A stretch of 43,861 bases of DNA, taken from the IMG/VR virus record IMGVR_UViG_3300032171_000006, positions 1 through 43,861 of that record. One strand, given 5' to 3'. Shown here in pieces: positions 266 through 43,861 of this stretch (positions within the stretch are counted from its first letter, which is position 1; every line of letters begins with the position of its first letter). The position numbers were made by a program, and so were the translations under genes. This DNA is from a virus (Duplodnaviria > Caudoviricetes). Below the pieces are notes generated by a model. The model saw only the letters and a program-made list of their open reading frames with translations, had not been told where the DNA came from and ran no database searches.

Positions 266-282
266 TGTCTAACCGTTAGACA
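266..282. promoter_or_regulatory. Dispersed palindrome copy 1 (TGTCTAAC-C-GTTAGACA)
   Basis: Perfect 8-bp inverted repeat, recurring at 13283, 28429, 34624 and 38469. Confidence 0.7.
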
Positions 283-288
283 AATGGA

Positions 289-2795: not shown

Positions 2796-2926
2796 TTAGG
2801 AAAGCAGTTGCCAACACTGAACTCTGTTACTAGGCCTCCTTATGTCTTCCCTTTTTAGGGAAATAACTCAGGAGTAAGGGGCGTCCTGAAAAACGGATGC
2901 CCCACGCCTCCACTCAGAAAAGAGAG

Positions 2927-3172
2927 ATGAAATCTTTAATAGTTAAAGACAAAAAAATTATGGGAGGTATTCCCGTTATAAAAAATACAAGGATTCCTAT
3001 TTCGTCTATAATTTATCTATTAGCAAGAGGAAAGACACTTGAAGAAATTACTACCCGATATTATCCTTGTTTGGAAAAAGAGATATTAATAATGGCTCTT
3101 AGAGAATATATAAAAGAAGAAAGTGGAAGAAAAAAAAATGAGCAAGAACGAAGAAGAAATTCCGATTTATGA
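2927..3172 (+). CDS. DUF433-family protein (antitoxin-like DNA-binding domain)
   Basis: D-x-x-IMGGIPVIKNTRIPI..I...L..G.T.EEI...YP.L signature of DUF433. Confidence 0.85.
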   Translation: MKSLIVKDKKIMGGIPVIKNTRIPISSIIYLLARGKTLEEITTRYYPCLEKEILIMALREYIKEESGRKKNEQERRRNSDL

Positions 3173-4036: not shown

Positions 4037-4201
4037 ATGCCTTTTAAATCCAAAGCTCAGCGACGGAAATTTTATCAACTTTACAAGCAAGGAAAAATCT
4101 CTAAGGCCACTCTTATGGAGTGGGAGAGAGCTAGTAAGGGTAAAAAGTTACCCGAAAGGGTAAGACCAAAGAAGAAAACAAAGCGTCGGAGGAAAAAATA
4201 A
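4037..4201 (+). CDS. Small basic protein (54 aa, not in ORF track)
   Basis: MPFKSKAQRRKFYQLYKQGKISKATLMEWERASKGKKLPERVRPKKKTKRRRKK; TAATG coupling. Confidence 0.8.
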   Translation: MPFKSKAQRRKFYQLYKQGKISKATLMEWERASKGKKLPERVRPKKKTKRRRKK

Positions 4202-4401
4202 TGGCTAAGAAATCGTCAAGGAAGTGGATTCAGTCTGCTATTAAACATCCAGGTGCTTTAAGACGACAATTAGGAGTAAAGAAAGGGAAGAAAATCCCTG
4301 TTTCTGAACTCCGAAAAGCTGCCAAATCAAAGGGAAAACTTGGTCGGCGGGCTAGATTAGCCCTTACTTTGCGTAGATTACGCAAAAAACGGTCTAAATA
4401 A
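4201..4401 (+). CDS. Small basic protein
   Basis: WIQSAIKHPGALRRQLGVKKGKKIP motif familiar from environmental phages; very K/R-rich. Confidence 0.8.
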   Translation: MAKKSSRKWIQSAIKHPGALRRQLGVKKGKKIPVSELRKAAKSKGKLGRRARLALTLRRLRKKRSK

Positions 4402-10749: not shown

Positions 10750-11101
10750 TACGACTTGGCGAAGGACTAATGATATTATCGGGCATGAACCTTTATTCGA
10801 GATTAAATGTCGATTTTGTGGCTCTCGGATGATTCTAAGATATAGCCACGTTATAATGAAAGATGTTTGGTCTTGGGCGACCAACAAACCATCTAACAGC
10901 TTAGGATTTAAATGTCCTGAGTGTGCTTGGTTTGTTAGGTTTTATGTAGAGGATGAACCTGAATATCTAAAAAAAATTTTGGATTTAAGAAATGGAGCTA
11001 ACATTTTTTATCCACGTTATAAGGAATGGGCTGAAGAAGATAAAAGAATTGCTGAGCAGTTACAGGCACTTGGCTATTGGGGTGGCCGAGATGATGTATG
11101 A
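10682..11101 (+). CDS. Zn-ribbon protein (probable paralog of upstream gene)
   Basis: CRFC ... CPEC with similar spacing. Confidence 0.75.
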   Translation: MKKFIKKLLAKIQRKNKIFPLINTTWRRTNDIIGHEPLFEIKCRFCGSRMILRYSHVIMKDVWSWATNKPSNSLGFKCPECAWFVRFYVEDEPEYLKKILDLRNGANIFYPRYKEWAEEDKRIAEQLQALGYWGGRDDV

Positions 11102-12257
11102 ACCGATAATAGAAAAATTAAAAACTGTTGTAAAAAGTATAGCAAAGGTAAAACGACCAAAGAAAATTGATGTTTGTAAATTCCCTGTAAATAAAGTTAA
11201 TTACATTATTGGCTGGTCTCATGGATATGAGAACCTAGCTATGAAGTTTAAGGGCGAAAATTTTAACTATAAGCTCTGGGATAAACTAGCTGACCTAATG
11301 GCGAAATATGTTAACGCTATTAGGTTTTTTGCCTATATTTCGGAAAATAACTTTTATATCAGAAACAGCTTCTTGCCATTTCAGAAACAAGGCGATAAAT
11401 ACGATTTAAGAAAGTTGGATAAAAAATATATCGAAGAAATCAAAAAACGATTAGATAGTTATCACAAGAGAAAAATAACAACCATTATTTGTTTGGCGTC
11501 TTCAATTAAAGCTCACCGATGGCGAACCTGTCCATTTAACGGGCGAAACAATATTAATGGCACAACTGAAGATGTTAAGCGATTTTATGATGACAAAAAA
11601 ACTGTTCAAGTGTTTTTGAAATACTTAACCAATATGGTTAAAGAATTTGATAATGATTATGTCATCTGGGAATTGGTTAATGAACCCAATGAAAGTAATA
11701 TTGATTCATTGGTTAAATGGTATAAAAAAGCGATAAGAAAATTGGTTTCCTTGGGCGTTCCTTATAATCGGATTGCGATAGAGAAATTTAATTCGTCAAA
11801 ATTACTAGAATTTACTGACCTTGGAATCTGGATTTTTTGGCATGGGGTTAATTCTGTCGAGACGTTAAAACGATTTTTACGGCCAGGAACTGAAATGCGG
11901 GCGTTATATGATAGTAGCAAATCTAAATTCTGTGCTTCGGCCGATGGGGCTGACTATATGAAGAAAGCGATGGGTTTACTTCCTAATTGGTGGAGTAAAC
12001 AATTTAGGCGGGCTAGTTCAAGACAGATGGGGCATATGATTAGATACGACAAAGTAAAACGAGGTAATGGAATAGAATTTATGTCAGCGTCTGCCTTCCT
12101 TGATGGTAAGTGGCCTAATTTAAGGACGGTTATAAAGATAGCATCTAAAGGATTAACTAAACAAAAATGTAAAGTTTTAGATGTTGATTATCATGAGAAT
12201 CGTCGGCCAGAATTAAAAGCTATAAATGGTAAAGGGCTTTTTAAATGCTTAAATTAA
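11091..12257 (+). CDS. Glycoside hydrolase-like TIM barrel (clan GH-A, GH5-like)
   Basis: NAIRFF, VIWELVNEP acid/base motif, FWHG; probable start 11091 or 11094. Confidence 0.65.
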   Translation: MMYEPIIEKLKTVVKSIAKVKRPKKIDVCKFPVNKVNYIIGWSHGYENLAMKFKGENFNYKLWDKLADLMAKYVNAIRFFAYISENNFYIRNSFLPFQKQGDKYDLRKLDKKYIEEIKKRLDSYHKRKITTIICLASSIKAHRWRTCPFNGRNNINGTTEDVKRFYDDKKTVQVFLKYLTNMVKEFDNDYVIWELVNEPNESNIDSLVKWYKKAIRKLVSLGVPYNRIAIEKFNSSKLLEFTDLGIWIFWHGVNSVETLKRFLRPGTEMRALYDSSKSKFCASADGADYMKKAMGLLPNWWSKQFRRASSRQMGHMIRYDKVKRGNGIEFMSASAFLDGKWPNLRTVIKIASKGLTKQKCKVLDVDYHENRRPELKAINGKGLFKCLN

Positions 12258-12733
12258 ATTTTGATATAAAAGAAACCGATGCCAAAGAAGAAAAGTGGCA
12301 TGATGCTCCATGGACGGGAAAGTTTGTTAAAAAGTATCAGATGCACTTCAATAGCGGTTCTACTGAGCCACAAGCTGGTGAAACATTGACAGGGGCTGAT
12401 TCAGGAACTACAGCGGTGGTTTCCAGTGTTTCGGTATGTTCTGGGTCATGGGCTAACGGAGATGCTGCTGGAACAATTACTTTTACTTCAGCGGGGTCTG
12501 ACCAGTTTACAGCGGGCGAACAAATTAATGGAAGTGTTGGTGGGAATAATATGTTAACCTGCCTTGCTAGTGTTCAAGCTGGGCATGGGTTACTTCATCC
12601 CATGTCTAACATGACTAAGCGGGATGGTAAATGGTGGACTTCAGAACTTTATGATTGGTATTATCGCAAGCGTGATGAAAGCGATGCTGATATTGATGTT
12701 TCTGAAACAGATAGAGGAAAAGAGGAACCATGA
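12245..12733 (+). CDS. Virion protein with a G/S/T-rich beta domain
   Basis: GETLTGADSGTTAVV...SGSWANGDAAGTI...F.AGEQI motif of phage tail/structural domains. Confidence 0.6.
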   Translation: MLKLNFDIKETDAKEEKWHDAPWTGKFVKKYQMHFNSGSTEPQAGETLTGADSGTTAVVSSVSVCSGSWANGDAAGTITFTSAGSDQFTAGEQINGSVGGNNMLTCLASVQAGHGLLHPMSNMTKRDGKWWTSELYDWYYRKRDESDADIDVSETDRGKEEP

Positions 12734-13035
12734 GTGATACAATCTTAGAGAAAATCAAGCCTTTGCCTGGTAAAATGTATGTTAAGGTGGATGACAGGAC
12801 AAAGTCTATGGGACGAATTATTGTGCCAGAGCAGTATAGCCAGCTAAGTGAGACGGGAACGATAATCAAGATTAACGAGGATAAAGAAACTAAGGAAGCT
12901 GGTTTAAAAGAGGGGCAGCGGATTCTTTTTACTTTCTATGCTGGTGTTCATATCCAGTTACCAGAGACTTATACCGAGTCTCATCTTCATCGGATTTTAG
13001 CCCCGAATGAAGTATTAGCTATAATCGAGGAATAA
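12730..13035 (+). CDS. groES: GroES-like co-chaperonin
   Basis: IKPL.....V, GRIIVP mobile loop, GTII, LKEGQRILF..YAG and EVLAII motifs. Confidence 0.85.
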   Translation: MSDTILEKIKPLPGKMYVKVDDRTKSMGRIIVPEQYSQLSETGTIIKINEDKETKEAGLKEGQRILFTFYAGVHIQLPETYTESHLHRILAPNEVLAIIEE

Positions 13036-14627: not shown

Positions 14628-15013
14628 TAACTAATACAGGACTTTCGGAAATTTGTAAGCTATTAGGTAATTTGTCTAATGGCACAGAGTTTACCTATAT
14701 AGCGTATGGTACTGGAACTGGAGCTGAAAGTTCTAGTGATACAACCTTAGGAAGTGAGACAGACAGGGGACTAGCGACCATGGAACTTGTTTCCACTTTA
14801 GCTCCTCAGGATACAGTTAAATGGTATCGTTACTTTATCACAGATAGTGATGTAACAATTGCTGAAGTTGGGGTTTTTAATGCTTCCTCAGGCGGGGATA
14901 TGTTAGGGCGGAAATTATTAAGTCCGACTGTATTCGCTGGAAAGGGAAGTGTAATTTATGTAGAGTTTAAAGCCATGATTTCTGATGGGGGGTATAGTGG
15001 CGGTTCGACCTAA
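14624..15013 (+). CDS. Tail collar/fibre-anchor-like protein (paralog)
   Basis: ITNTG, YIAYGTGT...DTTL.SE..R and EVGVFNASSGGDML.R motifs. Confidence 0.7.
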   Translation: MITNTGLSEICKLLGNLSNGTEFTYIAYGTGTGAESSSDTTLGSETDRGLATMELVSTLAPQDTVKWYRYFITDSDVTIAEVGVFNASSGGDMLGRKLLSPTVFAGKGSVIYVEFKAMISDGGYSGGST

Positions 15014-15914
15014 GCTCTCTGTTTCGATGATAGTCAGGAACGAGCAAGAGAATATTGCTCAGTGTCTTAGTTCGGTTAAAGGGGCGGATGAGATAGTTGT
15101 TGTAGATACGGGTTCAGAAGATGAAACAGTTAAGATAGCAGAGAATATGGGGGCTAAGGTATTTCTTTTTCCTTGGCGTGATAATTTTGCTGAAGCGTAT
15201 AATTTCGCTGATTCTAGATGCTCTGGTGATTGGATTCTTTCAATAGATGCTGACGAGAGATTAGAAGAAGGCGGAATAAAAAAGATAAGAAAGATAATTA
15301 AAGACGAGCAATCAGATTATATTGATTGTAAGATAGAATACGAGAAAAGTTATCATTATTTCCCCAAGCTAATAAGGAAGACTGATTATAATTATTGGAT
15401 TGGGGCTGCTCATCGAACATTAGTCGGTAGGTGGCGATGGAATAAAAGAGATATTACGATTTATGCTCATAGAAGCGTTAGCCATCGTAAAGACCCAGAT
15501 AGAACACTTAGGATTTTAAAGCGGGAATTAGAGAAATATCCTGAGTTATTGAGAGAACGCTTTTTTTATGCGATGGAATTAACGGTTAGGCAGAAATGGT
15601 TCGAAGCGTTATCTCAGTTCAAGATTTTTCTTTCTAACCTTTCTTCGGATTGGTTGGAAGAAGAGATAAAGAAGGCTCATGTAGCTGAAGCTCATTTAAT
15701 GTGTGCCAAGATATATAGACAGCTTAATTGTATGATTGAGTCTAGGGCTTCAGCGATTAAGGCTTTAGATATAGCGCCTGAGTTTAGGGAAGCAGCCGAT
15801 TATTTAGCCTTTATTTCTCATGGACGAGAGAGAGAAGAATATTTAATGATTAAAAAAGAATTGACCAATGAAGGTGTCCTTTTCATAAGGAAGGGTGATT
15901 GGTGCGATGCCTAA
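14985..15914 (+). CDS. Glycosyltransferase family 2 with TPR-like C-terminus
   Basis: LSVSMIVRNE, DEIVVVDTGS.D.T, W.DNFA.A.N and WILSIDADE (DxD) motifs; helical C-terminus. Confidence 0.92.
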   Translation: MGGIVAVRPKLSVSMIVRNEQENIAQCLSSVKGADEIVVVDTGSEDETVKIAENMGAKVFLFPWRDNFAEAYNFADSRCSGDWILSIDADERLEEGGIKKIRKIIKDEQSDYIDCKIEYEKSYHYFPKLIRKTDYNYWIGAAHRTLVGRWRWNKRDITIYAHRSVSHRKDPDRTLRILKRELEKYPELLRERFFYAMELTVRQKWFEALSQFKIFLSNLSSDWLEEEIKKAHVAEAHLMCAKIYRQLNCMIESRASAIKALDIAPEFREAADYLAFISHGREREEYLMIKKELTNEGVLFIRKGDWCDA

Positions 15915-28250: not shown

Positions 28251-28730
28251 ATGAGAAAGGTTTTGGTGGTCACTATCATATTTATCATATTTGTTATACC
28301 TGGCCATCTTAACCTTTCTCCTGAAGATATAGCTATATATGTTTCTAAGGCCGACCTTTATAAAGAGCTGTTTAAAGAGCCATTTGAAATTTTATTGCTC
28401 CAGACTTGGGATGGTAAGATTTATACATTGTCTAACCGATTAGACAATCAGATTATTATCCCGATTTATTATCTTAAAGAGATATTAGCTAAAGATGGTT
28501 ATAAAATCTCTGACCTTATTGTTGTTATCCATAACCATCATTTTATTTTTAGGTTCTCTAAAGCCGACCTTAGATATTACCGCCTTCTTAAACAAGAGGG
28601 ATTTCATGGTTTATTCTTATTATATCTCCAATCTACAGGGGGAGTGAAGCGATATGTCGAAATCAATGGAAAAGCTGAAGCAGAAAGTCTTGAAAGAAGC
28701 ATTAGCCGAATGGCGGGCAAAACATATTGA
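28251..28730 (+). CDS. JAB/MPN-like domain protein with N-terminal hydrophobic segment
   Basis: Upstream E (PFEILLL) and IHNH......S..D metal motif. Confidence 0.55.
   Translation: MRKVLVVTIIFIIFVIPGHLNLSPEDIAIYVSKADLYKELFKEPFEILLLQTWDGKIYTLSNRLDNQIIIPIYYLKEILAKDGYKISDLIVVIHNHHFIFRFSKADLRYYRLLKQEGFHGLFLLYLQSTGGVKRYVEINGKAEAESLERSISRMAGKTY
28429..28446. promoter_or_regulatory. Dispersed palindrome copy 3 (imperfect)
   Basis: ATTGTCTAA-CCGA-TTAGACAAT. Confidence 0.55.
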
Positions 28731-28950
28731 CCAATGGGAGAAGAATTTACAGGTCGCTATTGCTATCCGTGACGACCCAGACGCCAGTAACAAAGATAAA
28801 AATGAAGCTATAAAGATTATCAGCCGAATGCTAGGTATCCTTCAGCCCGAAAGAGTGGGGAGTAAAGAAAAGAAAGAAGAACCCAAAAAGAAAGAGCCAG
28901 AATTAAGCCCCGAAGAGGAAAAATTGCTTGAGCAGATTCTCAATGAATAA
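28654..28950 (+). CDS. Putative terminase small subunit
   Basis: Helical protein (D..ASNKDK.EA.K.I..MLG) immediately upstream of TerL. Confidence 0.55.
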   Translation: MSKSMEKLKQKVLKEALAEWRAKHIDQWEKNLQVAIAIRDDPDASNKDKNEAIKIISRMLGILQPERVGSKEKKEEPKKKEPELSPEEEKLLEQILNE

Positions 28951-30855: not shown

Positions 30856-31211
30856 TACAATAACTCTCCTATATCTTCTCCATACGCCACATCACTATCC
30901 CGTGGAATATCATCCTGGTCGCCAGCTATCTTCTTTATTGCTTTAATAATCTCGTTGCTATACTCTACTGGAAAATAAACCACCATATACTTGCCCGATT
31001 TTCCTTTATTTCCCTTGGTTCGCTTCCAATGTATTTGCCCGTTCCAGTCAAAAAACGGGGCGATACCTATACGGTTATAAACATGATTCCAATGAATATA
31101 CCACCCGTCATTAGTCGTATTCCCGTCCTTTTTCCTATAAACCTTAATCCCTTGAAACTGAGCTAGAAAATCACCCGTATAAAATTTATTGCTCTTTCTT
31201 ACTTTGGGCAT
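30855..31211 (-). CDS. Hypothetical protein
   Basis: ORF in operon; W/Y-rich beta protein with acidic tail. Confidence 0.7.
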   Translation of the reverse strand: MPKVRKSNKFYTGDFLAQFQGIKVYRKKDGNTTNDGWYIHWNHVYNRIGIAPFFDWNGQIHWKRTKGNKGKSGKYMVVYFPVEYSNEIIKAIKKIAGDQDDIPRDSDVAYGEDIGELL

Positions 31212-31533
31212 CCTTATTCCTCGCTGTCTCTAATCCATGTTTAAGGCCTAAAAAATAATTTTCCTGAATTACGATTTCTTCTGTAAATGGAAAATAATCA
31301 TCGGGTTCTGGTATTTCTATTCCCTTTTTATACCAATCCTCAAAATAATCTCGTTTTATTTCTTCTAATTGAGCTAAGGCTTCCTCAATAGTCTCACCAT
31401 CTCCCACAAAGGCATATCTACCTAATTCTGGTATTTCTGCTCTCCATCCGCCACCCCATTCTTTTGGTGTGGGGGTTAGTTCAATTTTATAGCGTAGTTT
31501 TAAATAATAGTCTAAGTCTTTTTTCTTTTCCAT
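31186..31533 (-). CDS. hicB: HicB-family antitoxin-like protein
   Basis: LDYYL.L.Y.IEL......GGGW.AEIPELG.....GDGET.EEAL..L.......G..IPEP. Confidence 0.88.
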   Translation of the reverse strand: MEKKKDLDYYLKLRYKIELTPTPKEWGGGWRAEIPELGRYAFVGDGETIEEALAQLEEIKRDYFEDWYKKGIEIPEPDDYFPFTEEIVIQENYFLGLKHGLETARNKDAQSKKEQ

Positions 31534-36482: not shown

Positions 36483-36685
36483 TTCACCGACTCCTTGACA
36501 GGCTTAAAGAAGGCATCCAGCATTTTTCTTTCTATTATCTTGCTGGCCTCTTCGATTGAATGAGTAATTACTTTCTTGGTCGGTTGATCGTCATTCATTT
36601 CAACAAAGAATAGTAAGTAATGCCCGTCGGGTAACTGCTCAATAACAACAGTAAGGGTATCCGAAGTAGTAATTAATGTTGTCAT
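36479..36685 (-). CDS. Hypothetical protein
   Basis: GGAGGT RBS. Confidence 0.65.
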   Translation of the reverse strand: MTTLITTSDTLTVVIEQLPDGHYLLFFVEMNDDQPTKKVITHSIEEASKIIERKMLDAFFKPVKESVN

Positions 36686-41692: not shown

Positions 41693-41843
41693 CCGAATAC
41701 CAACGTCTCATTAAATCTCTGTCAATCGGGTAAATATTACCACATCGAGGACACATCACCTTACCCATCCCTACATACTCCATCCTTAAAAAGTCAATAC
41801 ACTTTGGACAATAATAAGGTTCACGGAAAGCGTCTTTCACCAT
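41646..41843 (-). CDS. Zn-ribbon protein
   Basis: CPKC ... CPRCG. Confidence 0.7.
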   Translation of the reverse strand: MVKDAFREPYYCPKCIDFLRMEYVGMGKVMCPRCGNIYPIDRDLMRRWYSDEIYYRIFGEPLSVN

Positions 41844-41958
41844 ATCTAATCACTCCTTTCAATTTATTTATAGCTGTGCCAATAATACTTAACGCCCCAA
41901 TAATAATTCCGCCCCAGAAAATTATTGTTATCACATCCATTTGCTCGCCTCTCTATTA

Positions 41959-41987
41959 AATATAAGCGACTAACATCGATTTGTCAA
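41959..41987 (-). promoter_or_regulatory. Sigma70-type promoter for the replication/recombination genes
   Basis: TTGACA-17 bp-TATATT, same hexamers as 814 and 43769. Confidence 0.8.
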
Positions 41988-42121
41988 GTTTTAATCCATT
42001 TGCTCGCCAATATTTTCATTTCACGACAAACCACTGTTTTATAATCAAAAAAATATCCTGTTGCTAGAATATTTCTAAATTCAACTGGAACAATAATATT
42101 GTTTTCTTCTTAAATCCTCCT

Positions 42122-42289
42122 TTAATTTAGTTGTTCTAAATATTGATCAATATCCTGATAAACGAGCAAAATGCGTGATCGCCATAAAGTGAGATCACTT
42201 CCTATTCCCCTAAAATTCCCAAGATCATCAAAGATCAGCCGTAATTTTTTACTGATCTCTTTTAATTTCTCTTGATCCTTTTTTCTCAT
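42122..42289 (-). CDS. Small helical protein (55 aa, not in ORF track)
   Basis: MRKKDQEKLKEISKKLRLIFDDLGNFRGIGSDLTLWRSRILLVYQDIDQYLEQLN; AGAGGA RBS. Confidence 0.65.
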   Translation of the reverse strand: MRKKDQEKLKEISKKLRLIFDDLGNFRGIGSDLTLWRSRILLVYQDIDQYLEQLN

Positions 42290-42363
42290 CTTGTCCTCTT
42301 TTAATTAGTTTGATCATCATTTAATTGTTCATAAATAAAATTATTGATTCCCCGAATAAGATC
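42145..42363. other. GATC cluster
   Basis: GATC at 42145, 42177, 42193, 42223, 42233, 42254, 42274, 42312, 42360. Confidence 0.9.
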
Positions 42364-42510
42364 GTGAATCTCATCATCAAGTCGAGAATAAAAGTTAATC
42401 TTTGGATTTTTATGTTTTTCTGCGTCGAACAACAAAAAAGAAGTCAATTCATAAGCCTTACTTAAATATTCCTTTACTTTCTGCAATTCTTTTAATTGTT
42501 TACCAGTCAT
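42301..42510 (-). CDS. Small helical early protein
   Basis: AGGAGG RBS. Confidence 0.7.
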   Translation of the reverse strand: MTGKQLKELQKVKEYLSKAYELTSFLLFDAEKHKNPKINFYSRLDDEIHDLIRGINNFIYEQLNDDQTN

Positions 42511-42521
42511 CTTATCCTCCT

Positions 42522-42686
42522 TTAAAATTTCTTATATGGTCGGGGATTGGAGAGTCTTTCGAAGTAAGTGCAAACTCGACCATATTTTTGACCAAAGGCA
42601 CAAATAGCACAATTTACCATTTTCTCGCCATTTTCAATTAAGGTGGACTCTCGATAATAAGGACACTCGTTTAATTTTCTTTTCAT
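42522..42686 (-). CDS. Small Cys-containing protein (54 aa, not in ORF track)
   Basis: MKRKLNECPYYRESTLIENGEKMVNCAICAFGQKYGRVCTYFERLSNPRPYKKF; AGGAGG RBS. Confidence 0.65.
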   Translation of the reverse strand: MKRKLNECPYYRESTLIENGEKMVNCAICAFGQKYGRVCTYFERLSNPRPYKKF

Positions 42687-42689
42687 TTT

Positions 42690-42911
42690 TCAATCCTCCT
42701 TAAATTGAATGTCTTTATTTCCAAGATATTGGAAGCCCGCTATTGTTCCATCCTCTAATTTTACTGAAAATTTAATTGGGCATCCATCTTTTTGCTCGTA
42801 TATCATATAAATTTCGCCCTCAAAATCCTCATCTAGTCTCCTAAAATCTCCGCCCCATGGACACAAATTCAAAGCCCAATATCCCGTCTCCTTAGCAATT
42901 TTTACTTTCAT
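42690..42911 (-). CDS. Small SH3-like early protein
   Basis: AAGGAG RBS before ATG 42911 (MKVKIAK); the longer predicted N-terminus runs through the ribozyme. Confidence 0.7.
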   Translation of the reverse strand: MKVKIAKETGYWALNLCPWGGDFRRLDEDFEGEIYMIYEQKDGCPIKFSVKLEDGTIAGFQYLGNKDIQFKED

Positions 42912-42934
42912 TATTTTTCTCCTTTTATTTTTTT

Positions 42935-43001
42935 TGGCCTGTCTCATCGGTCCCCAGGCGGCCATCCCTGGGGAGACTCGGGATTACTCCCGAGTTTCGA
43001 C
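42935..43001 (-). ncRNA. Type II hammerhead ribozyme
   Basis: GUC-GAAAC-UCGGGA-GUAA-UCCCGA-GUC/UCCCCAGG-GAUGGCCG-CCUGGGGA-CCGAUGA-GAC-A-GGCCA: full core, stems I-III, GUC cleavage triplet and loop I/3-prime pseudoknot. Confidence 0.92.
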
Positions 43002-43124
43002 TTAATAAGAGCTACGATAACAATCTCGGTCGATAAAAACTTCTGGGAAGATAATTTTGGCAATCAATTCTCTAACTTTCCAAAATTTTAACTTGTCATC
43101 AATAAACAACCAAACCTTTCTCAT
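43002..43124 (-). CDS. Small early protein (40 aa, not in ORF track)
   Basis: MRKVWLFIDDKLKFWKVRELIAKIIFPEVFIDRDCYRSSY; AGGAGG RBS; stop abuts the ribozyme. Confidence 0.6.
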   Translation of the reverse strand: MRKVWLFIDDKLKFWKVRELIAKIIFPEVFIDRDCYRSSY

Positions 43125-43145
43125 TTTATCCTCCTATAAAAATCT

Positions 43146-43206
43146 CTGGCCGTCCCGACTCGAACGGCCAAGACGGCCAGGTAAGCCAGAAGCCCAAAAA
43201 CGGCCA
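43146..43206 (-). ncRNA. Structured intergenic RNA with a T-loop-like hairpin
   Basis: CUGGCCGUC/GACGGCCAG 9-bp stem enclosing CCG-UUCGAGU-CGG; three UGGCCGU copies. Confidence 0.55.
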
Positions 43207-43211
43207 AGGAA

Positions 43212-43403
43212 TTAATCATCTTTAATTTCTCCAATTTGTTCTAATTCATATACCCATTTATAAAACTCATTTAAGGTAGAACAAGTTATTCCATGTTCAA
43301 CTAATCCCCATCTGTCTTTTACTTCCCCATCATAAAAACCACTTTCAGTAAATTGTAATATCAAGGTTTTTCCGTCCTTAAGGTTTCTTCTTAATAACTC
43401 CAT
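43212..43403 (-). CDS. First early gene, acidic hypothetical protein
   Basis: AAGGAG RBS, directly downstream of a promoter. Confidence 0.7.
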   Translation of the reverse strand: MELLRRNLKDGKTLILQFTESGFYDGEVKDRWGLVEHGITCSTLNEFYKWVYELEQIGEIKDD

Positions 43404-43434
43404 TTAATTCTCCTTTAATTAAATTTACACCTAG

Positions 43435-43463
43435 ATTATACCATACTTCCCTATAAATTACAA
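43435..43463 (-). promoter_or_regulatory. Strong leftward early promoter
   Basis: TTGTAA-17 bp-TATAAT with TG extended -10. Confidence 0.75.
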
Positions 43464-43768
43464 TCCCCTAATACCAAAAAACCATTAAAACCAATACTTA
43501 AATTAACAATCTTTTATCCTATATCTATTATCCTATATAAACCAACAGGGGAGAGATAAGCCACCATCCCGCTTCCCTCACTCTTCCCGTCACATTATCC
43601 CCTTACCCAGCCAGCCAAAGAGCCACCCGAGACCCCCCATTGGCCTCAGGCGGGGGGATAATCCCTTCTTTTTAACGCAGAATATTTTTTAAAGCATTTG
43701 AGGCTTGAAGTCACAGATTGTGATTTTAAGGCTTAATTTGAGGTTATGGATTATTTTGATATGGGGGG

Positions 43769-43797
43769 TTGACATATGGTGACTTGTGGAGTATATT
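43769..43797 (+). promoter_or_regulatory. Rightward sigma70-type promoter
   Basis: TTGACA-17 bp-TATATT, then AGGAGG and ATG. Confidence 0.8.
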
Positions 43798-43806
43798 ATA
43801 TATAGG

Positions 43807-43861
43807 AGGTTAGTCATGAGTAAAAAGAAAGAGTTATTAGAGGAAGCCTTAATAAAGGCTA
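43807..43861. repeat. Terminal direct repeat, right copy
   Basis: Identical to 1-55. Confidence 0.95.

What the first reader, a model, noticed from the sequence alone, without database searches (positions are those of the whole stretch)
42145..42363. GATC island: 9 sites in 219 bp in a genome otherwise purged of GATC
Seen: a manual scan of the whole window found only 10 GATC, one at 36586 and nine here. Composition predicts roughly 130-150 genome-wide and fewer than 1 in 219 bp. Elsewhere Asp codons before C are consistently GAC. The island spans two small early ORFs in different codon phases, so it is enriched rather than merely unpurged. It lies about 160 bp upstream of the replication-gene promoter and within the first early transcript. 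Known: E. coli oriC has a comparable GATC density that is read by Dam/SeqA, and GATC is a target of DpnI/DpnII-type and some phosphorothioate systems. Inference: a methylation sensor or timer, a decoy for a host GATC enzyme, or a programmed cut site near the genome end. I know of no described equivalent.
Basis: partly seen in the sequence, partly recalled or inferred. Interest (0 to 1): 0.82.

Follow-up and report, generated by a model that had tools for sequence, protein, structure and literature searches.

The report
Conserved GATC array inside phage gene
A marine-sediment phage has erased the word GATC almost everywhere but packs seven copies into one 55-codon early gene and keeps three at matching codons in two relatives, so the cluster is likely a selected signal, which a host methylase would mark and a phage protein would read to license packaging.

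Summary
Observation confirmed. The genome has 10 GATC against about 146 expected, 9 of them in 42145-42363. Of codon pairs that could spell GATC, 1 of 963 do so in 83 other genes, against 7 of 10 in gene A (42122-42289).

The unit is gene A, not the replication promoter. Two related GATC-purged phages carry a 47-49% identical gene A, reversed and about 1.5 kb from that promoter. Both keep GATC at the same three codons although 10 of 24-25 synonymous positions differ. Gene A is the only protein shared across the variable early cassette. Contigs of three other runs carry the same sites, so chimera and recent import are unlikely.

The mechanism is not shown. Best reading: a methylation-read cis array with P1 pac-like architecture that licenses packaging (0.3). 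Rivals: a switch on gene A, an RNA-hairpin by-product, a programmed cut. It is not a P1 pac member: it lies outside the small terminase gene and only 3 of 9 sites fit the hexamer. The host is unknown and n is three lineages. This scan noted retained-site islands on other viral DNA before (unchecked notes).

The parts
42122..42289 (-). Gene A, 55 aa, predicted two-helix hairpin; carries 7 GATC; the only protein shared across the early cassette with both relatives
   Evidence: (pLDDT 92, helices 3-24 and 31-54)
42145..42277 (.). Array of 7 GATC in 133 bp inside gene A (7 of 10 GATC-capable codon pairs used)
42254..42257 (.). Conserved site 1 (codons 11-12: E-I in window, K-I in L002, E-I in L025)
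42233..42236 (.). Conserved site 2 (codons 18-19: L-I, E-I, K-I; the amino acid changes, the third-position G and ATC are kept)
42193..42196 (.). Conserved site 3 (D-L, codons 32-33 in window, 34-35 in relatives)
42230..42260 (-). Inverted repeat or hairpin closed by conserved sites 1 and 2 (21 nt apart); 3 of 11 pairs change on both sides
   Evidence: not beyond a synonymous null once GATC is fixed
42140..42153 (.). Perfect 14-bp palindrome centred on the GATC at 42145
   Evidence: sequence
42301..42510 (-). Gene B, 69 aa, no homolog found; 2 GATC (42312, 42360) in the half next to gene A, compatible with default codon use
41959..41987 (-). Sigma70-type promoter match (11 of 12) upstream of the replication arm; close to the island only in this genome
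43435..43463 (-). Promoter match for the early cassette (10 of 12, extended TG)
43500..43800 (.). Non-coding block between divergent promoters, partly conserved in L002; likely region of the virion DNA ends (inferred)
   Evidence: shared motif at window 43622 and L002 3341

Best explanation
Gene A carries a dense GATC array that is kept across related phages while the rest of the genome is purged, and the array is likely a cis-acting signal that a host GATC methylase would mark and a phage protein would read before the genome is cut for packaging. Such a checkpoint would explain the paradox. Only genomes with a methylated array would be packaged, so the array would not be a restriction liability, while stray GATC elsewhere would be and is purged.
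For: 1 of 963 GATC-capable codon pairs used elsewhere, against 7 of 10, 3 of 6 and 4 of 4 in the three gene A copies; P=9e-4, 9e-3 and 5e-4 even without avoidance. Three sites sit at homologous codons at 61% nucleotide identity, with 10 of 25 and 10 of 24 synonymous codons differing. Four further window sites coincide with amino-acid differences from the relatives, and L025 has its own extra site in a C-terminal extension, which suggests selection on number or density (capable-pair excess P=0.008). L025 has 0 GATC in its first 4.7 kb and 7 in its last 760 bp; the L002 record has 5 in 22,011 bp, 3 in gene A. The array is 0.5 kb (L002) to 1.3 kb (window) from the conserved non-coding block. P1 pac has seven GATC hexamers in 161 bp inside a coding sequence (PMC10028697, passages).
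Against: No methylation, binding or cutting was shown. The array is not in the small-terminase candidate (28654-28950), which has no GATC and lies about 13 kb away. Its distance and orientation to the presumed end differ between relatives. Only 3 of 9 sites fit P1's TGATC(A/G) (contexts). No convincing phage methyltransferase was found: one weak PADLOC hit (E 8e-4, ORF 1604-2011) and no catalytic motif in a real gene. The host and its methylases are unknown. The two relatives are 82% identical in gene A, so there are only two well-separated lineages, and L025 was found through gene A itself. The genome ends are inferred, not mapped.
Confidence: 0.3

Rival explanations
1. The array is an expression switch on gene A: a host or phage protein binds the sites according to methylation state and blocks or permits transcription, reporting whether the present or previous host methylates GATC (works like Mu mom or P22 gtr control).
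For: The sites travel with gene A through a change of position, orientation and promoter. In L002 and L025 gene A heads its own small operon with a TTGATT-17-TATAAT promoter match (read by eye). Two conserved sites are two helical turns apart.
Against: The sites are in the coding region, 30-145 nt after the start codon, not in a promoter. The one upstream site in L025 is absent from L002. There is no overall helical phasing.
Confidence: 0.22
2. The sites are a by-product of a conserved mRNA or single-stranded DNA hairpin, and further sites accumulated because the cost was already paid or the region is shielded by bound protein.
For: A hairpin over codons 10-20 is predicted in all three copies. 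3 of 11 pairs change on both sides, reached by 16 of 500 shuffles. Local folding beats synonymous recodings (p<0.001, 0.011, 0.042). Other avoided words survive in hairpins: GGACC 42949 and GCCGC 42958 in the hammerhead, and CCGG in the L002 hammerhead and terminator.
Against: With GATC held fixed, the hairpin is no stronger than the null (p=0.058, 0.38, 0.73), and whole-ORF folding is ordinary (p=0.10, 0.36, 0.46). Any two GATC pair by palindromy. The three double changes are one lineage split. The hairpin leaves conserved site 3 and the extra sites unexplained, and the 1.1 kb beyond the island has 0 GATC against 3.6 expected.
Confidence: 0.17
3. The array is a programmed target for destruction: a GATC endonuclease, or an RNase reading GAUC, cuts gene A or its mRNA and spares the rest of the purged genome, acting as a fuse or timer.
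For: Selection on density suits a target. In both relatives a cut would remove only gene A's small operon and the terminal block. A palindromic word cannot separate DNA-level from RNA-level reading.
Against: In the window a cut would also separate the early promoter and cassette. A double-strand break near an entering end is normally costly: leading-region sites decide restriction sensitivity in PMC12455610 (abstract, Type I system). Two conserved sites are predicted to be base-paired in RNA. The other avoided words point to ordinary DNA restriction pressure.
Confidence: 0.15
4. The array is an oriC-like replication or sequestration element read by a Dam/SeqA-type system.
For: The density is like oriC (recalled); the region is AT-rich; it lies next to the replication promoter in this genome.
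Against: It is about 1.5 kb from that promoter in both relatives. There is no 10.5-bp phasing, and the oriC 13-mer match is at most 9 of 11. An iteron-like, AT-rich block that looks more like an origin lies at about 290-770 (DnaA-box-like repeats at L002 2300-2380).
Confidence: 0.08
5. Gene A was recently imported from genomes that do not avoid GATC and has not yet been purged.
For: It sits in a hypervariable cassette, and gene B's two sites fit default codon use.
Against: No homolog outside this phage group was found: 3 proteins among 5.8 billion, and 2 family members plus one marginal unrelated-length hit among 1.84 billion. The count of 7 exceeds even a non-avoiding expectation (P=9e-7 by base composition). 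The sites persist across deep divergence.
Confidence: 0.05

Closest known systems
Phage P1 pac site (PMC10028697, passages; PMC12707154, passages)
   Same: Seven GATC-containing sites within about 130-160 bp, inside a phage coding sequence; in P1, methylation governs cutting for packaging.
   Different: P1 pac lies in the small-terminase gene pacA and has a TGATC(A/G) consensus, and P1 encodes its own methylase (dmt). Here the array is in an unrelated 55-aa early gene, 3 of 9 sites fit the hexamer, no convincing methylase is found, and the rest of the genome is purged of GATC.
Restriction-site avoidance in phages (Rusinov 2018, PMC6286503, passages)
   Same: Genome-wide depletion of GATC and other short palindromes.
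   Different: The passages read describe depletion only. Here one gene runs against the depletion and keeps the sites across lineages.
Methylation switches at Mu mom (OxyR/Dam) and P22 gtr (seen only as reference titles in PMC4461284 and the search listing of PMC2909390; mechanism recalled)
   Same: A few GATC sites in a phage locus read by methylation state.
   Different: Those sites lie in promoter regions of enterobacterial temperate phages. These lie in a coding region, in a phage with no integrase hit and an unknown host.
E. coli oriC GATC cluster, Dam/SeqA (recalled)
   Same: Similar local density in AT-rich DNA.
   Different: No phasing, no convincing 13-mer, no adjacent DnaA boxes; an origin-like block lies elsewhere.

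Membership tests
P1-type methylation-dependent pac site | Cluster of about seven GATC sites within about 160 bp of coding sequence | tested here: met
   7 sites in 133 bp of gene A; P1 figure from PMC10028697
P1-type methylation-dependent pac site | Located inside the small terminase gene | tested here: not met
   The small-terminase candidate 28654-28950 (assigned by position before terL) has no GATC; gene A has no family hit
P1-type methylation-dependent pac site | TGATC(A/G) hexamer consensus | tested here: not met
   3 of 9 sites (42145, 42177, 42312) fit on either strand (contexts)
P1-type methylation-dependent pac site | Phage-encoded Dam-type methyltransferase | tested here: inconclusive
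   No hit in Pfam (35 ORFs), PHROGs or NCBIfam; one weak PADLOC hit among 30 ORFs, E 8e-4; not every ORF went to every library
P1-type methylation-dependent pac site | Terminase binds and cuts there depending on methylation | not testable with these tools
   Only assembled contigs are available; no read ends or modification calls
oriC-type Dam/SeqA element | GATC sites phased on one helix face | tested here: not met
   Rayleigh p=0.42 at 10.5 bp for 9 sites; only a nominal p=0.03 at 10.0 bp for 7 sites, among 12 tests
oriC-type Dam/SeqA element | 13-mer unwinding repeats and DnaA boxes beside the cluster | tested here: not met
   Best 9 of 11 to a recalled 13-mer consensus; no repeat family in the island
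oriC-type Dam/SeqA element | Host encodes Dam and SeqA | not testable with these tools
   Host not identified
Restriction-site avoidance | Genome-wide depletion of short palindromes on both strands | tested here: met
   CGCG 0 observed against 42 expected, CCGG 1/68, GCGC 2/57, GTAC 3/66, GATC 10/146
Hammerhead_II ribozyme (neighbouring element) | Rfam RF02276 score above the gathering threshold | tested here: met
   43.6 bits against 37 at 42933-43002; the L002 copy scores 36.7

The most novel reading that the evidence does not exclude
A phage that escapes GATC restriction by purging the word keeps one array of it, inside a dedicated small gene, as a methylation checkpoint. The gene's own product or the terminase lets only genomes marked by the host's GATC methylase be packaged, so the phage reads the host's defence mark to license its own progeny.
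Probability: 0.25. Interest if true: 0.88.

Novelty: new variant of a known kind. Interest (0 to 1): 0.7.

Why it matters
Site avoidance is usually read as purely passive: fewer sites, less restriction, above all in the first-entering DNA. If the array is read through methylation, it is a P1-like epigenetic control in an unrelated phage group that depends wholly on the host's enzyme. It would also give a sequence-only way to find such elements, by looking for avoided words conserved at synonymous sites. The pattern is strong; the mechanism is open.

Tried and rejected
Relatives.
- blastn of 41800-43861 against 50,697 phage records found nothing.
- Terminase and capsid match cultured phages only at 20-30% identity.
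- L001, L003, L004, L005, L024, L029, L043 and L044 are one 23,405-bp record, 100% identical where compared, and were not counted as independent.
- L046 was a chance pattern match in an unrelated, non-avoiding contig (36 GATC against 29 expected).
- Of 17 stretches from the palindrome search, 10 were unrelated non-avoiding contigs and were dropped.
- Five further close fragments (L006, L007, L032, L035, L042) hold 2 GATC in 43,934 bp but do not reach gene A.
- The 15 distant portal relatives (L008-L022, 45-51%) mostly cover structural genes; 7 have no GATC. The four sites at L021 160-288 lie in a weakly avoiding GC-rich contig and were not counted.

Gene A function.
- No hit in Pfam, PHROGs or PADLOC.
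- Atlas hits 0.77 or lower.
- Foldseek gave no match at E<=0.001.
- No oligomer prediction was obtained.

Host.
- A portal profile found nothing in GTDB contigs.
- The HicB-like gene matches Deltaproteobacteria, KSB1 and other MAGs at only 36-60%.
- A DNA search of 401 genomes gave one HicB match and two low-complexity matches, with no spacer.

Reads.
- No RNA holder was listed.
- Contig depth dips over the cassette in X2 and X3, but contig depth cannot rank regions, so this was not used.
- Laying four runs on L025 found no gene A copy.

Literature.
- Searches requiring all terms for a GATC cluster in a phage returned 0 papers.
- Looser searches gave only avoidance, P1 and Mu/P22 papers.
- Subscription papers, including the original P1 pac work, are not in the library.

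Full report
WHAT THE WINDOW IS. It is a complete circular-mapping phage genome of 43,861 bp with a 55-bp terminal overlap, classed by IMG/VR as having direct terminal repeats. It encodes an SU10-type portal, capsid, large terminase, DnaB-like helicase, HNH protein and M15 peptidase. The runs that hold it are labelled marine sediment or marine metagenome. Structural genes run on the + strand from 43814 round to 30557. Early and replication genes run on the - strand from 43403 to 30532, and divergent promoter matches flank a non-coding block at about 43465-43770. Cultured relatives are remote (20-30% identity). The host is unresolved; sigma70-type promoter matches and the peptidase point to a bacterium (inference).

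THE OBSERVATION. There are exactly 10 GATC against 145.8 expected, 9 of them in 42145-42363. This is enrichment, not just a failure to purge: 0.64 are expected in 219 bp without avoidance, P=2.7e-8. The purge is at codon level. In 83 other genes 1 of 963 GATC-capable codon pairs spells GATC. Asp before C is GAC 97 times and GAT once, although GAT dominates elsewhere (536 to 106). The phage also avoids CGCG, CCGG, GCGC, GTAC, TGCA, GGWCC and GCSGC, the usual signature of restriction pressure (PMC6286503, passages). None of these is concentrated in the island. An X2 contig spans 42003-43527 with no difference. An X3 contig spans 41867-42543 with two substitutions, neither in a GATC. An X4 contig covers 42063-42325 unchanged (four runs, three studies). 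A chimera is therefore unlikely.

THE UNIT IS GENE A. Seven sites lie in ORF 42122-42289 (7 of 10 capable pairs; P=9e-4 under the genome's codon use with no avoidance). Two lie in the adjacent half of ORF 42301-42510 (2 of 6; P=0.32). Gene B has no homolog. Gene A has two, at 49% and 47% identity, and a profile search of 1.84 billion representatives added only one marginal 155-aa hit. L002 was found through the exonuclease, so it is an unbiased sample. It has 5 GATC in its 22,011-bp record, 3 of them in gene A. L025 was found through gene A. It has none in its first 4.7 kb and 7 in the last 760 bp, 4 of them in gene A.

The same three codon positions carry GATC in all three copies. Before Ile19 the residue is Leu, Glu or Lys, yet the third-position G and the rare ATC codon (14% of Ile) are kept. 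Window and relatives are 61% identical in nucleotides, with 10 of 25 and 10 of 24 synonymous codons different; the two relatives are 82% identical to each other. The window's four extra sites coincide with amino-acid differences from the relatives, and L025 has its own extra site at the C-terminus. In both relatives gene A is reversed, has its own promoter match, and lies about 1.5 kb from the replication promoter. It is the only protein-coding match across the variable early cassette; the other matches are RNA hairpins. So the sites follow gene A, not the replication promoter. The caveat is that there are three copies and two well-separated lineages.

THE PROTEIN. It is predicted as a two-helix hairpin (pLDDT 92) with near-neutral charge (11 basic, 9 acidic). 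It has no family or fold match. Nothing shows that it binds DNA.

A COMPLICATION. Conserved sites 1 and 2, 21 nt apart, close an inverted repeat in all three copies. Three of 11 pairs change on both sides, reached by 16 of 500 shuffles. Local folding exceeds synonymous recodings, but not once GATC is held fixed (p=0.058, 0.38, 0.73), and whole-gene folding is ordinary. Other avoided words do survive in structured RNA nearby: in a Hammerhead_II ribozyme at 42933-43002 and in its L002 counterpart. A structure by-product is therefore a real rival, but it leaves site 3 and the extra sites unexplained.

HOW IT MOST LIKELY WORKS. A purge to 1 of 963 pays little if nine equally vulnerable sites remain, so the island sites must differ in kind: methylated, shielded, or meant to be recognised (inference). 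Leading-region sites are normally the costly ones (PMC12455610, abstract and outline, a Type I system). The closest architecture is P1 pac, with seven GATC hexamers in 161 bp inside pacA, bound when hemimethylated and cut after further methylation (PMC10028697, passages; PMC12707154, passages). I commit to a methylation-read cis array that licenses genome-end processing or packaging (0.3). It would account for retention, density, position 0.5-1.3 kb from the conserved non-coding block, and the purge elsewhere. Against it: the array is not in the small-terminase candidate, 3 of 9 sites fit the P1 hexamer, its distance and orientation vary, and no convincing phage methylase was found. Rivals are an expression switch on gene A (0.22), a hairpin by-product with local tolerance (0.17), a programmed cut of DNA or mRNA (0.15), an oriC/SeqA-like element (0.08; no phasing or 13-mer) and recent import (0.05). 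The three readings in which a GATC-specific protein acts on the array without destroying it (packaging licence, expression switch, oriC-like) sum to about 0.6.

KNOWN OR NEW. It may work like P1 pac but is not a member of that family. Searches for a retained GATC cluster in a GATC-avoiding phage returned no paper (looser searches). The library lacks most subscription papers, and I read no supplements. PMC10644984 (passages) was not relevant, since T5-like genomes are GATC-abundant. PMC4461284 gave only reference titles on Mu mom, and PMC2909390 was seen only in a listing. The oriC and mom mechanisms are recalled. Earlier notes of this scan describe retained-site islands in actinobacterial phages and in a giant virus; I did not check them, and they only prompted the shielding rival. 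None was on this genome or its relatives.

VERDICT. This is a real, statistically extreme and evolutionarily kept feature, tied to one small gene, with an unproven mechanism. Interest 0.7; new variant of a known kind.

Noticed in passing
window 42933-43002 (-); L002 4856-4931 (+): Type II hammerhead ribozyme in the early cassette (Rfam 43.6 bits; L002 36.7 bits). The window copy has CCGAUGA in place of the core CUGAUGA; the L002 copy has the canonical core.
   Followed up: partly
window 43117-43248; L002 4453-4581: Conserved non-coding stretch (74% identity) with a 14-pair GC-rich hairpin just before a ribosome-binding site. It was called terminator-like in the window, but L002 lacks a clear U tract.
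   Followed up: partly
window 37607, 40130, 41310, 41942, 42001, 42622 (-); L002 4089-8871; L025 1569-4685: Polar motif GGCGAG(C/A)A on the sense strand of the early/replication arm (6 of 7 copies in the window, 8 of 8 in L002, 12 of 12 in L025), in tandem just upstream of the early promoter in both relatives; an operator- or antiterminator-like word.
   Followed up: partly
window about 290-770; L002 2300-2380: Origin-like block: TCTACAA repeats (DnaA-box-like TGTCCACA in L002) flanking an AT-rich tract, next to a conserved 17-bp palindrome at about window 267-283 that is shared with several relatives.
   Followed up: partly
window about 42020-42121 (-): A strong ribosome-binding site after gene A is followed by a short frame without a start codon; it looks like a decayed gene (sequence).
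   Followed up: no
L025 407-571 (-): manA-like RNA match (37.5 bits, E 1.2e-6, below the gathering score of 55.2) in the replication arm of the relative.
   Followed up: no
window 12730-13035, 14985-15914, 10992-12257, 31186-31533, 2897-3172: GroES-like co-chaperonin, family-2 glycosyltransferase, GH5-like protein, HicB-like protein without an evident HicA, and a DUF433 gene.
   Followed up: no
window 4201-4401 and neighbours; L002 123-323; L006 3268-3459: Very basic small proteins conserved just upstream of the portal gene; candidate DNA-condensing proteins.
   Followed up: no
L002 354-428; L006 2438-2512: Relatives carry a single tRNA gene (Trp; Met) upstream of the portal region; Rfam found none in the window.
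   Followed up: no
L008-L022: Among 15 distant portal relatives, 7 have no GATC at all, while others avoid CGCG, AGCT or GTAC instead; the avoided word set shifts by lineage.
   Followed up: no
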